Source: Brachybacterium sillae (GTDB lineage: Bacteria; Actinomycetota; Actinomycetes; Actinomycetales; Dermabacteraceae). From it: a DNA stretch of 64,000 bases. How positions within the stretch are numbered: the first letter of the stretch is position 1; each line of letters begins with the position of its first letter. Made by a program: the position numbers. The stretch is taken from positions 62,001 through 126,000 of the forward strand of contig NZ_JAFEUW010000001.1 in NCBI RefSeq assembly GCF_025028335.1, given 5' to 3'. Shown piece by piece: positions 40,901 through 46,900 of this stretch.

Positions 40901-43900
40901 TGAGCCGACCCGAGATGCTCCAGGACCACATCCCGACGGTTCCGCCGCTCAGCAATCTGCACAGCCGTCGCCCCCGACGCCGTCCTACCTTCCGCAGGAA
41001 CACCACCCGCTTAGTGTGTCACTCCAGGCAGGCGCGAAGCGCTCACCAGCACCGATACACCCAAAACCCGCGTCGATACCCCAGAGAGGTCCAAGTCAGG
41101 TCCGAGGTCAAGGGACAGTCAGCGCGCATGCTGGCGCTGAGCCATCCCCCTCGGGCATTTTGTGCCAATAGGTGCCCTCCCGCCTGTTCGGCGGAAGCTG
41201 CAGCGCTCGGTCACAGACCCCCAGCCGGCTGGGGCGGAATCCTAGCTGTTCTTCCCCGTGAGGTTGTGAACGCGTTCGGCGGGGGTGGAGCCTCCGAGCC
41301 CGGTGTGGGGTCTGTGGTGGTTGTAGTGATGGAGTCAGTTGTCGTAGGTGGCTGCGCGGTCAGCGTCTGACTGGTAGGTCTGCGCGTAGGCCCACTCGGT
41401 GGCGAGGGTGCGGTTGAAGCGCTCGACTTTCCCGTTCGTCTGGGGTCGGTAGGGGCGGGTGCGGCGATGCTTCACCCCGGCACCGAGCGCGTCGGTGAAC
41501 GCGTGCGAGCGATAGCAGGCCCGGTTCTTCTTCGACGGGTAGCCCTTGTCCGCGAGCACCCGATCCGGCCTCGTGCCCACAGGCCCTCGGCCGGGGATGT
41601 GGATCTCGTCGAGTACGCAGGTGAACATGCTCGTGTCTGCGACCTGCCCGCCAGTGAGGACGAACGCCAGCGCCCGGGCCTTCCCGTCGCAGACGAGATG
41701 GATCTTCGTCGTCAAACCACCCCGTGACCGGCCGATCGCGTGGTCAGGAGGCTCCGGCCCCGACTTCTTGTCGTTCGATGGATCCCCCTGTGACCCGGGG
41801 CAAGGTCGCGCCATGCTGATGGACACGCGCGATCGAGGAATCCACCGACACGACCCAGTCGATCTCACCCTGAAGCGACGCCCGCTTCTGCACATGGGTG
41901 AGCAGGTCCTCCCAGACGCCGTCGCTCGCCCACCGCCGGAAGTTCTTGTAGATCGTGTTCCAGCTCCCGAACCGATCGGGCAGGTCTCGCCACGCCGATC
42001 CCGTGCGGAACCGCCACGCGGTCGCCTCGACCACCGTGCGCCGATCCACCGGAGGACGGCCCCGTGTCCTCACCGGCGGGAACACGTCCCGGATCAGCTC
42101 CCAGACCTCGTCCGTGATGACATCTCGAGACACGCCTCAAGGATCACCCGAAGGCCCCGAACCAGCATTTAGCAACACGGCCTAAGCCGCGTCGGAGGTG
42201 GTGAGGGGGCCGCCGGCGGCCGTGTGGGATGGTGGCCCTGGCCCGGGGCTCAGCCGTGCGGGGTGCCCAGTGCTTTCTCGTCATAGGCCTGACGAGCTTC
42301 AAGGACGTCATCGAAGTGCTCGGCCGCCCAATCGACCAGCGCCCCAAGTGGATGCTCCAAGGTCGAGCCGAGTGGCGTGAGGCCGTAGTCGACGTGGCGG
42401 GGCACTGTGCCGTGATCGATCCGCTCGACGATCCCGTCGCGCTCCAGGTCGCGGAGAGTGTCCACCAGAACCTTCTTGCTGATGCCGTCGACGGCCGCCT
42501 GGAGCTCGCCGAAGCGCAGACGCCGATGCTGGAGCGCGATGACGATCAATGCGGTCCACTTGTTGGCGATCCGCGCGAGAGAGGTGCGCGACGGGCAGGT
42601 CGCGAGCAGGGGATTCCATGAACGTTCGGTGACCATCAGGTGAACTCCTTCCGTGGTTACGTTGAAGTCACCACAACAGCATCGGCCACCCTCAGAGGGC
42701 GGTGATCCTGCTGCGGATCGAACGAAGGAGAACTGACCATGACTGCCACACCCCCCGTTGAGACCGTCGAAACCTACTTCACCCATCTGGCCCAGGGCAA
42801 CGTCGAGCAGGCCATGGCCGTGCTCGACCCGGACGTCGCGTGGCACCAGCCTGGCGACAACCGCTTCTCGGGCGTGCACCGCGGCCCGGATGCCATCCGT
42901 GCCCTGATCGGCGGCATGATGGAGGCCACCGGCGGGACATTCGCGGTGGCCCCGACCGGCCCCCTCATGGCGAACGAGGACGTGGTGGCCGCCCCGGTGC
43001 GCTTCACGGGTCACCGAGATGGGCGAGAGCTGGACCAGCCCGGGGTGGATCTTCTCACTGTCCGGGACGGCCGGATCGTCGAGGTCCGGCTCTTCTCCTC
43101 AGACGGCCCCGCCGAGGACCAGTTCTGGGGGAAGGCGTAAGACGACGGCCAGGTTGCTCAGCAACCTGGCCGTCGTCGTTGCGGCATGTGCGCGACGTAC
43201 CGATCAGCGACCATCAGGAAGGTTGACATGAACTCCAAGCAGTACGCCCCAGAGCATCGTGAAGTCCTCATCGTAGGCGCCGGCTTCAGCGGCCTGGCCA
43301 ATCTCCACCTGCTGCGCCGTGCAGGGATCGACGCCGCGATTGTCGAAGCAAGTGACGACGTCGGTGGCACTTGGCATGCGAACCGATACCCGGGGGTCCG
43401 AACAGACAGCGAATCGCACTATTACTGCTTGTCCTTTGCCCAGGAAGTCACCGTGAATCGGCTGTAAGTCTCTGAAGTGGCTGGCCTGGGGTCGGCTGGC
43501 AGGGTGGGTGCTGGTGCTCCGTCTGGTCGTGACTCTTGAATCGCCTGGCCTCCCGCTTCGGCGGGGTGCCTTTCCCAGGATCTGTCCGGCCGGGTGGGTG
43601 CCGGCGCCGACCCTGCCCACTCCGATGGCTTGATCAGAAGCTTGCCCGACCGTTCACGGCGGTCGTGGCCCATTACAGGCCTGCCTCGAAGTGACCATTC
43701 CCGGGTCGACGCCAGCAGTGACGTCAACCCAGTGGAGAGGATCACGGTCACCATGACCATCGTCGCAAACACGTTCGCGTATGTCATCGGCGCGGACACC
43801 CATTCCAGAACACACACTCTCGCCGTGCTCGACGCGCGCACTGGCGCCAGAGTGGACACTCGGACCTTCCCGACGACGCCGGCGGGATTATCACGCGCGG

Positions 43901-46900
43901 TCGCGTGGATCGCTCGGCGCACCAGCGGGCTGGCCGATGTGCTCGTAACGATCGAGGGCGTCGGCTCGTATGGCGCCCGGCTCGCGAGAGCATGCCAGGA
44001 CGCCGGCTACCGGGTCGTGGAGTCGTTCCCGACAGCGGCACGTGAACGTCGCGGACGAGGCAAGAGCGACGAGATCGACGCGGAACTGATCGCCCGCTCC
44101 GTGCTCGGCGTCGATGCCGACAACCTCCGTGATCCGCGTCAGGACGCGGGAGTCCGCGCGGCGCTGCGGGTGCTGATCGGCGCCCGCGACCTCATCAACC
44201 TCGAACGCACCAGGTCGATCAACGCCTTGACCGCGCTGCTTCGAACGGTCGACCTCGGCATCGACGCCCGCGCCTCGCTCACCAAGAAGCAGCTCGCGGC
44301 GATGGAGTCCTGGCGCACGCGACAGGAGGACCTCGCGACCGCGACAGCCCGCCGGGAAGCGATCCGGCTGGCCCGACGGGTTGCCGTCTGCGATCAGGAC
44401 CTCGCTGCTAACCGTGACGAGATCACCGCGCTGGTCGCCGCCAGCGACGCCGCAATCCTGCTCGACGAGCCCGGGATCGGCGCGATCAACGCGGCCGTGA
44501 TCATCGCCGCCTGGTCACACCCCGGCCGGGTCCGCTCCGAAGCAGCGTTCGCCGTGCTCGCCGGCGTCAGTCCCGTGCCCGCCTCGAGCGGAAACACCAC
44601 CCGTCATCGCCTCAACCGAGGAGGCGACAGGCGTCTGAACAGAGCCTTATCGTCGATCGCGCTGACCCGAATGTCGCACCACCCGCCGACCCGCGCCTAC
44701 GTCGAACGCCGACGAGCCGAAGGACGCACCACCAAGGAAATCCGCCGCTCACTCAAGCGATACATAGCCCGCCAGCTCTACCGCCGCCTCAGCGAGCAGA
44801 GCGGACTTGACAACACATAGAAGCATCCTGGGTTTCGTTCCGTTCTTGAAGCAAGGATGGAACACGATGAACCAGAAGTACTCTCCCGAGATGCGCGAGC
44901 GCGCGCTGCGGATGCTCGATGACCCGAGTTTTATCAATTTAGTGAGCACTGCGTGACGGTGGCCGGTGGATGCGGTCGAGCGCGTCGCGGAGCTCGTCGG
45001 GGATAGGGTCGGCGGCGGTGATGTTGTGGTCGCCGGCGCGGATCGTGACGGTCTTGTAGCGCCGGGCGGTGGTGACGAACTTCTTCAGTGACCAGCCGGT
45101 GAGGTGCTCGAGGCGGCGGGCGACGGCGAGGGCGGCGAAGACGATGCTCAGGTGGGCCTCGATGGAGTCCTGCAGGCGGTGGTAGATCGGCCGGGCGGCG
45201 AGGTCGTGCTTGGACATCCGGAAGGACTTCTCGATCTGCCAGAGGCGGTGGTAGGCGCCGATGACGAACTCCGCCGACGCCTGCTCGGGCAACAGGTTGG
45301 TCAGGTAGCCCTTGATCCCGGCCAGGGCCCGGGCCTTGGCCTCTAACTCACGGTTGACGGCCCGTTCCTCGCCGGTGACGGTCAGGAACCGGTTGCGCTT
45401 GACCGGGGCCTTGCCGGCGGCGGCCTGTTCGGCCTTGGCGACCTGCTGATCGATCCCCCGCAACGTCCGCCGCGCCCGGGCGGCCCGGTACTGGTAGTAG
45501 ATTCGCCCCTCACGGCGGTTGCCGGCCGGGCCGGTGAAGGTCTTGGCGGTGAAGATCTGCCCGTCCTCCGGCCCCTGCCCGGGGTGCTCGGCCAGCCACT
45601 TCTCGATCACGTACGGGACCTCGGCGATCCGCGCGCCGAGGATGTAGGACAACCCGGCGGCCTCGATCGCGTCCCGGTTGTCGTGGCTGAGCATCCCGGC
45701 ATCGGCCACCACGGTGAGGTTGTAGGTGGCCTTGAACGCCTCGATCACCGGCAGCATCGTCTTCGTCTCGGCCTTGTTGCCCTCAAAGGCGTTGACCATC
45801 AACGGAAACCCGGCGGCATCGGTCAGCAACCCGATGGTGATCTGCGGATCGATCCGCCGCTCCTTGGAGTACCCCGGCTCCCGGAAACCGTCACCCTCGT
45901 CGGCCTCGAAATACAACGTCGAGACGTCGTAGAGCACCAACGCCGCTGGCCCCAGCTCTGCCGTCGCGGCCAGGGCGGCCGCCAACGCCTGACGGAAGGC
46001 CGGCTTGGCGTAGCGCGGCAGGCGCCGGTTAACGGTCGGGTAGGACACCGGGGCCAGGCCGGTCTCCTCGATCACCCGCAGCGAGTCCAGCTTGCTCGTC
46101 GGCTCCACCAGGCGGGCCAGCACCAGGTGAAAGAAGACCTCATCTCCCTGCGCCGCGGCCTGAAGGCCCAGATCGACGTAGACACGCTCGATCGCACCGA
46201 TCAGGTGCTCCATCCGGGTGGTGGTAATCGGCAACGGCCCACCCGAGCCGGGCCTGCCGAGCCCGAGATCGAGCTCGTCTTGCCCCGCTGCCAGCCGCTG
46301 CCGCGCCGCGGCCTTGAGGGCTTCGATCTCGGCATCGGAGTGCGCTGAGCCGATGTGCTCGATGTCCTTCGACCCGCGCCGCGTAGAGTGAACGATCTGC
46401 ACCGCCCGCGCCCCAGAGGCGGTCTTCACCGTGCGGATGTAGGCCACCGCCGCACTCTACAACCCCCGGTTAACCTCGAGATTTCACGGGGGTGTGGTCT
46501 CGACCGGCGGAATGAATGGCGAAAGGTGCTCCTGGCCTGGGATGATACGAGGTGTTGAGACCCGTACCCATCCGCTGGAAGGAGCACCTTTCAGGTGTCC
46601 CACCCTACCTTGTTCTTCTACCCCCGTCCGCGGGTGGACGTCGCTGAGGTCCCGGCCCTCTCGCATGCGGGCGCGGTGCTGCTGACCGACACGATCCACG
46701 CCACCGGCCTCGCCTCTTCGCTGCGGGAAGCACTGGCTCCGTGGACGAAACCGCTGGCCGAGCACCACGCGGCGAAGGTCCTGCTGGACCTCGCACTCAC
46801 TCTCGCAATCGGCGGCGAGCATGCTTCGGATACTGATCTGCTGCGTTGCGAGCCGGGCCTGTTCGGTGATGTCGCCTCGGCCCCCACGATCTCCCGCACG

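What a model noticed while it worked through the whole genome (the two positions that open the first line are those of the whole stretch)
43454..44834. IS110 bridge-RNA element programmed to insert into the terminal inverted repeats of IS3 elements
Both copies of this IS110 (105462-106826; 1660754 on the minus strand) sit inside the terminal inverted repeat of two different IS3 elements (TGAATCGS^CCYGGG), and its left non-coding end carries guide segments matching both halves of that target. Its right end (AGAAGCAT) rebuilds an IS3-like end, and three free IS3 ends read TGAAGCATCCCGGG, suggesting IS3 copies moved on with the IS110-derived end.
Evidence so far: Flanks in calls 54, 60, 64. In 21 related copies the left and right guide segments change together with the flanking target: 12 copies with the TGAATCG guide lie in IS3-type ends, four other guide types match their own targets. 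The hybrid-type IS3 ends at 1679486 and 2376405 have 3-bp target duplications (read from call 64), and the third is on a different IS3 (261474).
(Added by a program. Inside this text positions count along the whole contig: contig position 62,001 is position 1 of the stretch shown here. "Call 12" and the like, gene names such as g00115 and contig names such as C1 are that model's own, and its searches are not shown. The text may have been shortened before it was handed on; [...] marks where a part breaks off. The agent that wrote the report below was given it as the finding of a first reader that could run no searches.)

Follow-up and report, generated by a model that had tools for sequence, protein, structure and literature searches.

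The report
RNA-guided parasite scars IS3 ends
A jumping gene whose predicted guide RNA spells the end-repeat of IS3 jumping genes sits inside those ends, and some free IS3 ends carry three bases identical to its own end, likely a footprint left when it was lost, which would hide those ends from the guide.

Summary
Observation confirmed. An intact IS110 (two copies, 99.85% identical) sits inside IS3 terminal repeats. Its left non-coding end has bridge-RNA anatomy and its target guide spells the outer 14 bp of the IS3 end. Of 23 related copies with this guide, 19 lie in IS3-type ends. Sister elements target IS5 ends and ISL3, IS481 and IS3 coding sites. This is a known habit (IS4321, ISEc21), and this scan found IS110-in-IS3-ends before on other DNA.

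The newer part is the hybrid end. Three free IS3 ends here read TGAAGCAT where near-identical copies or close relatives read TGAATCGC; the three changed bases equal the IS110 right end. 0 of 87 metagenome ends of this type carry it. Only 2 of 12 ends of the targeted six-copy IS3 family still match the guide. Most likely these are footprints of an in-register crossover between left target and left donor when IS110 was lost.

That hybrid-ended IS3 moved on is parsimonious, not shown. A natural-variant origin is not excluded for hybrids in other genomes.

The parts
43228..43453 (+). Truncated flavin monooxygenase-like host gene, cut by the IS3 insertion
   Evidence: Pfam NAD_binding_8; translation ends at the IS3 tip
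43454..43462 (+). Left target: positions 1-9 of the IS3 left terminal repeat (TGAATCG-GC); position 9 is the only base shared by both junctions
   Evidence: Sequence; empty site in runs X1 and X6
43463..43467 (+). Right donor half (TGTAA), first bases of the IS110
43463..43752 (+). Left non-coding end holding the predicted bridge RNA (5' stem, target-binding loop, donor-binding loop)
   Evidence: Fold z = -4.26, 0 of 200 shuffles as stable; 17-row alignment, 20 of 39 consensus pairs with two-sided change
43537..43545 (+). Left target guide TGAATCGCC
   Evidence: changes with the target in relatives
43574..43581 (+). Right target guide (CCCAGG) plus handshake bases AT complementary to donor positions 8 and 7
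43636..43641 (+). Left donor guide AGAAGC
43673..43680 (+). Right donor guide (TTACAG) plus handshake bases GC complementary to target positions 8 and 7
43753..44820 (+). IS110 recombinase, 355 aa, intact; D15, E68, D106, D109, S279 align with the IS621 catalytic residues
   Evidence: Pfam PF01548 + PF02371; NCBIfam NF033542 178 bits, cut-off 140; alignment to 8wt6
44807..44812 (+). TTGACA, a -35-like box in the right end; would face the left end in a circle
   Evidence: the -10 partner 17 bp on, TAAGTC, is a poor match
44819..44827 (+). Left donor half and core (AGAAGCA-TC), last bases of the IS110; source of the hybrid bases
44828..44922 (+). Right target (CTGGG) and remainder of the IS3 left end, with the start of orfA at 44867
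   Evidence: 100% identical to the left end of a full IS3 in G733
44923..46470 (-). IS1634-family element that truncates this IS3 (outer end approximate)
   Evidence: NF033559 367 bits

Best explanation
This IS110 sits inside the terminal repeats of IS3 elements because its predicted bridge RNA spells their outer 14 bp, and the free TGAAGCAT ends are likely footprints left when an IS110 copy was lost, or an insertion aborted, with the crossover shifted a few bases left of the core. In IS621 numbering the target is TGAATCG-CC-C(C/T)GGG and the donor AGAAGCA-TC-TGTAA; both junctions are the top-strand products of a cut after position 9 (shown by sequence; chemistry inferred from IS621). Left target and left donor share GAA (positions 2-4) and C (6) in register. 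A crossover in GAA gives TGAA|GCATC, a crossover at C gives TGAATC|ATC; both forms are seen. The product keeps the IS3 TG tip, so it would stay usable by the IS3 transposase, but has three new mismatches to the guide, so it would no longer be a target (inferred). One such IS3 probably transposed afterwards (inferred, about 60%). Odds: targeting 95%; IS110 origin of the two hybrids in the six-copy family 85%; this crossover route about 60%.
For: Targeting: 19 of 23 copies with a TGAATCG-type guide lie in IS3-type ends, 3 in look-alike sites, 1 unclear; the same element (99%) has 7 copies in G733, 6 in IS3 ends. Handshake position 7 matches in both loops for 8 of 8 guide types. Hybrids: six IS3 copies differ at 3 internal columns, yet two right ends carry three changes equal to the IS110 end, and a sister copy has the IS110 in that same end. 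The closest relative of the third element (86% over 157 nt) has TGAATCGC. 0 of 87 TG-tipped metagenome ends carry GCAT. In the 150 listed of 213 family matches (hand count): 47 TGAATCG(C/G), 4 TGAAGCAT, 1 TGAATCAT, and no single-base variant at positions 5-8 among the TGAATCG-type elements. In 68 genomes all 7 free donor-like IS3 ends start TG and all 10 AG-tipped ones are joined to IS110. Only 2 of 12 ends of the targeted family remain guide-matched, while 6 of 6 non-target IS3 ends checked in this genome are full length.
Against: No RNA, circle or excision product was seen (no circle joint). G019 and G043 hold donor-like ends but no IS110-family gene (0 matches each; G043 is in 70 contigs). 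G006 has TGAAGCAT on both a left and a right end of one IS3 type, which also fits a natural variant. TGAAGCGT and TGAAGCGC are natural IS3 ends one or two transitions from TGAAGCAT; a viral-contig IS3-type end reads TGAAGCAT with no IS110 nearby (L475); single changes at positions 7-8 occur naturally (L206, L208). No hybrids in five genomes carrying the second IS110 with the same guide, none in G733, and none for three other guide types. The 1-2 base losses in four left ends lie in C runs, and this assembly has such indels (16 of 1004 run comparisons).
Confidence: 0.6

Rival explanations
1. One reading: the IS3 transposase copies the IS3 out of an occupied site using the IS110 right end as a substitute end; the A tip is then corrected to T (for example by copying from the other IS3 end), and the element inserts elsewhere.
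For: An occupied sister copy is still in the genome, 20 kb from one hybrid copy, and shares its 13-mer left end. In IS3-family circularisation one end acts only as a target (PMC3219604 passages). Two copies here appear to use a substitute right end built from flanking DNA.
Against: It needs an extra tip correction each time; no uncorrected free AG-tipped end was found; both ends must be cut at CA-3' for insertion; the occupied copy has T where both hybrid copies have C at an internal column; it does not predict the TGAATC|AT form.
Confidence: 0.2
2. TGAAGCAT is a natural IS3 end variant (from TGAAGCGT/GC) that spread between IS3 ends by conversion; the match to the IS110 end is chance.
For: TGAAGCGT ends exist in this genome; G006 has the variant on both end types; L475; G019 and G043 lack IS110; the third element's left end and the hybrid right ends share 28-29 nt.
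Against: Three specific substitutions between copies 99.7% identical are about 1e-10 by point mutation. No multi-copy IS3 with TGAAGCAT at both ends of one element was found. In the family set none of the free variants is on the abundant TGAAGCG-CCTGGG type, which is nearest by mutation; two single ends with CCTGGG do occur in the G446 genus set. Pattern found in 0 of 300 other phylum genomes.
Confidence: 0.15
3. The IS110 right end is adapted to rebuild a working IS3 end so that the parasitised IS3 stays mobile.
For: AGAAGCATCC(C/T)GGG has the length and look of an IS3 end; two branches with this guide share this donor.
Against: The motif is clade-wide and occurs with IS5, ISL3, IS481 and IS3-frameshift targets; it lacks the TG tip.
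Confidence: 0.05

Closest known systems
IS621 of E. coli (IS110 group, bridge RNA; PMC11208160, PMC11208158, PDB 8wt6)
   Same: DEDD + serine recombinase, left non-coding end with target and donor loops, 7+2+5 register, cut after position 9, handshake pairing.
   Different: Distant protein (E 1e-11); invariant position 9 is C, not T; position 8 differs between donor and target; the target is another IS's terminal repeat, not REP.
IS4321 / IS5075 (IS1111 group; Partridge and Hall 2003, seen only as a title in reference lists)
   Same: Programmed to the terminal inverted repeat of another transposon.
   Different: They target Tn21-family repeats and have sub-terminal repeats; their non-coding region lies downstream (recalled). 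No donor-derived footprint in free ends is described in the passages I read.
ISEc21 (IS110 group; PMC11187229)
   Same: IS110-group element that targets IS3-family elements.
   Different: Targets the codons around the second D of the IS3 DDE motif, not the terminal repeat.
CazIS110-1 (bioRxiv 10.1101/2025.10.25.684509) and expanded IS110s (bioRxiv 10.64898/2026.08.14.744561)
   Same: Top-strand-only transfer needing host completion, and half-match recognition, offer routes to shifted crossovers.
   Different: The parts I read do not report target sites that keep donor bases after loss of the element.

Membership tests
IS110 group, bridge-RNA element | DEDD RuvC-like domain plus C-terminal domain with catalytic serine | tested here: met
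IS110 group, bridge-RNA element | Non-coding region upstream of the gene with two internal guide loops | tested here: met
   (prediction and covariation; Rfam has no matching family)
IS110 group, bridge-RNA element | Target and donor guides that covary with target and donor | tested here: met
   8 guide types; left guide 8-9 of 9 in seven types, 6 of 9 in the ISL3 type
IS110 group, bridge-RNA element | No target duplication; insertion at a short core | tested here: met
   Empty site; one shared base
IS110 group, bridge-RNA element | 2-nt core identical in donor and target (CT in IS621) | tested here: not met
   Only position 9 (C) is shared; position 8 is T in the donor and C/G/T/A in targets. 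PMC11208158 says the first core base is the less conserved
IS110 group, bridge-RNA element | Expressed RNA, circular intermediate, junction promoter | tested here: inconclusive
IS110 group, bridge-RNA element | RNA-dependent recombination activity | not testable with these tools
   Needs an assay
IS1111 group | Sub-terminal inverted repeats and downstream non-coding region | tested here: inconclusive
   Non-coding region is upstream and the gene ends 7 bp from the right end, against membership; no dedicated repeat search was run
IS3 family (the targets) | orfA/orfB DDE transposase, TG...CA ends, short target duplication | tested here: met
   Six-copy family: 71% to the window's NF033516 orfB, plasmid hits annotated IS3, 3-bp duplications. 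Window target: relic only, full form in G733

The most novel reading that the evidence does not exclude
An RNA-guided IS parasite immunises its own host: when it leaves an IS3 end imprecisely it writes three of its donor bases into the repeat, giving a working IS3 end that its guide can no longer read, and these immune IS3s then spread. The six-copy IS3 family here, with 10 of 12 ends occupied or altered at the guide site, would be an IS-versus-IS arms race caught in one genome.
Probability: 0.4. Interest if true: 0.72.

Novelty: new variant of a known kind. Interest (0 to 1): 0.55.

Why it matters
IS110 recombination is described as scarless and is being developed for genome editing. Natural target sites that keep donor bases would reveal a by-product pathway and a design rule: avoid in-register similarity between left target and left donor. 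For mobile-element biology it gives a testable case of one IS escaping another's RNA guide, and a clade whose guides are repeatedly reset to other IS families. The targeting itself is a new example of a known habit.

Tried and rejected
Right end as an adaptation to IS3: rejected. Target duplications as proof of movement: rejected, since an in-place footprint keeps them. Hybrids for other guide types: IS481 type, 5 matches in 55 genomes, 4 IS110-linked and 1 chance; ISL3 type, 4 of 4 IS110-linked in 5 genomes; G062 type, one predicted 9-mer in G367 that is not an IS3 end. These are small samples, and these pairs share fewer bases in register, except the G062 type. Matches set aside as chance because no IS3 inner motif follows: G151, 14 of 31, 18 of 29, 17 of 18 viral loci. 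Laying four runs on the six-copy IS3 found only distant relatives, so it could not check its ends or the C-run losses. Rfam: nothing. The genome-contig scan gave only one close full copy. Literature searches and supplement searches found no description of IS3-terminal-repeat targeting or donor footprints. ISfinder could not be consulted, bioRxiv supplements were not seen, and two files were cut when stored. No structure prediction was run; not needed.
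Full report
1. Observation. The window holds an intact IS110 recombinase gene (43753-44820; Pfam PF01548 + PF02371; NF033542 over its cut-off; catalytic D15/E68/D106/D109/S279 by alignment to IS621). A second copy, 99.85% identical, lies at contig 1660754-1659382. The window copy splits an IS3 left end into TGAATCGG and CCTGGG. The uninterrupted form is seen in 2 of 4 public contig sets, and all four hold the same IS110 with 1-2 differing letters. That IS3 is only a relic here (96 bp, cut by IS1634); a full copy with IS110 in both ends exists in G733. The second IS110 lies in the right end of another IS3 that keeps its GGA duplication, and lacks 3 nt of the left target. 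The host is a 71% G+C bacterium; named relatives of the protein are actinobacteria.

2. Guide anatomy. The 290-nt left end folds better than all 200 shuffles, and 17 aligned relatives show a 5' stem and two loops. Using IS621 numbering (cut after position 9, handshake pairing with positions 6-7; PMC11208158 passages) the target is TGAATCG-CC-C(C/T)GGG, the outer 14 bp of the IS3 repeat, and the donor is AGAAGCA-TC-TGTAA. The right target guide continues into bases complementary to donor positions 7-8, and the right donor guide into bases complementary to target positions 7-8. Position 7 matches in both loops in 8 of 8 guide types. Only position 9 is common to donor and target.

3. Target census. 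Copies with a TGAATCG-type guide: 12 of the close group (83% or more amino-acid identity; 11 in IS3-type ends, 1 look-alike site) and 11 of a 58%-identical group (8 in IS3 ends, 2 look-alikes, 1 unclear); some have only one junction in view. G035 has an IS3 with IS110 in both ends and a TAC duplication. In G733 all 6 IS3-type ends that the pattern found are occupied. Sister elements are aimed at an IS5 end, two ISL3 coding sites, an IS481 coding site and the start of IS3 orfB (flanks named by NCBIfam), a TGAAGCGT end, a repeat and a stop-codon site. In a 24-row tree (one frameshifted row left out) the two TGAATCG groups are separate well-supported clades on an open fork, so a single origin is neither shown nor excluded.

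4. The right end. AG(A/G)AGNN-TC is shared across the clade whatever the target, and AGAAGCAT also ends copies in non-terminal sites. It lacks the TG tip whose CA-3' is the cleavage substrate in IS3-family ends (PMC3219604 passages). So it is not a rebuilt IS3 end. Its GAA and C simply match the target in register.

5. Hybrid ends. The six copies of the targeted IS3 family differ at 3 internal columns, but 10 of 12 ends are changed at the guide site: one occupied, two TGAAGCAT, one substitution next to the core, two lacking the outer 10 nt, four left ends short by 1-2 C. Only two full matches to the guide remain in the genome, plus one look-alike. The two hybrids need three specific changes (about 1e-10 by point mutation at this divergence) and equal the IS110 end. 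The third hybrid is on another IS3 whose 86%-identical relative has TGAATCGC. Among 120 metagenome matches to the inner motif, 87 are TG-tipped ends and none has GCAT. In 68 genomes of the family there are 7 free donor-like IS3 ends (3 here, 1 G019, 2 G006, and a TGAATCAT in G043), all TG-tipped, and 10 AG-tipped ends, all joined to IS110. Relatives of the G006 element (85-88%) have TGAATCGG, one TGACTCGG. Two more single ends occur in 351 genomes of the G446 genus. A hybrid-only pattern found no IS3-type end in 400 order genomes (1 chance match), and none in 300 phylum genomes.

6. Mechanism. Shown: junction sequences, guide matches, covariation, hybrid sequences. Inferred: RNA-guided insertion as in IS621. 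Inferred: hybrids arise when left target (TGAATCGC) and left donor (AGAAGCAT) cross over at their shared GAA or C instead of after position 9. This could happen in an imprecise excision, in an aborted top-strand exchange finished by host repair (top-strand-only transfer is reported in 10.1101/2025.10.25.684509, abstract and Results part 2 of 3), or by slippage between the imperfect repeats; sequence cannot separate these. It explains the T tip and both hybrid forms. IS621 excision is reported to give the expected empty site by PCR (PMC13626964, abstract and section 5), so a footprint would be a minor pathway. Inferred: three extra mismatches block re-targeting (low mismatch tolerance, PMC11208160 passage; but this element does enter TGAAGCGC ends with one mismatch). 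Inferred: the two hybrid copies share an internal variant, so one origin followed by transposition is simplest; two in-place events are possible.

7. Against. No RNA or circle seen. G019 and G043 have donor-like ends without any IS110 gene found, which fits loss of the element but also a natural variant. G006 has the variant on both end types. TGAAGCGT ends are one transition away, and L475 looks natural. No hybrids in five genomes with the second IS110, in G733, or for three other guide types. The C-run losses could be long-read errors, although only 16 of 1004 run comparisons in other repeats differ and six ends with the same C run are intact. Kin genomes are not independent.

8. Known systems. 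IS4321/IS5075 target Tn21 terminal repeats (title only) and ISEc21 targets IS3 transposase codons (PMC11187229 passages, section 13 and supplement passages). A 2026 preprint notes that insertion destroys the target and that half-matches are used (10.64898/2026.08.14.744561, abstract and passages). Earlier notes of this scan report IS110s aimed at IS3, IS66 and IS256 ends in other genomes; a search for hybrid or scarred ends and one by sequence found none. My paper searches found no report of IS3-end targeting or donor footprints; the library is partial and ISfinder was not available.

9. Verdict. Real element, ordinary mechanism, known type of target choice. The donor-derived, guide-evading IS3 ends are the new part: well supported in this genome, ambiguous elsewhere, cheap to test. 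New variant of a known kind; interest 0.55.

Noticed in passing
Loci L014-L018, L021-L027, L031, L037, L038: A clade of actinobacterial IS110s with easily read guides aimed mostly at other IS: IS5 end, two ISL3 sites, IS481, the start of IS3 orfB, IS3 ends.
   Followed up: partly
L107 (G035:C1:2099810-2103933), L105 (G029), L322/L324 (G733): IS3 elements with an IS110 in both ends, right ends facing inward; the G035 case keeps a 3-bp duplication.
   Followed up: partly
Contig 2349910 and 2054510: One IS3 copy inserted in an IS481-like gene lost the outer 10 nt of its right end; a second copy carries the same flanking bases as a substitute end of about normal length and has no target duplication, suggesting movement with a borrowed end.
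   Followed up: partly
L409, L411 (G733): A second IS110 (37% identical, 7 copies) has inserted inside and beside this IS110, and an IS3-like element sits in its non-coding end.
   Followed up: no
L001 / L289 (G446): A 91%-identical copy with the same guide has left target TGAAGAGC, two mismatches to the guide.
   Followed up: no
window 33700-49100: Dense nest of IS elements (two IS3 types, two IS1634-like, IS1380, IS5, IS110) between host genes; contig 2622348 holds a partial second IS110.
   Followed up: no
Contig 1-3400: The contig start differs from its repeat at 1836675 by about 50 gaps, mostly single missing C or G, a sign of low-quality long-read consensus there.
   Followed up: partly
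Contig 1679486 and 1660754: The hybrid end matches the IS110 donor half at 8 of 9 positions and lies 18.7 kb from an IS110 left junction on the same strand, so it could act as a stray recombination partner.
   Followed up: no
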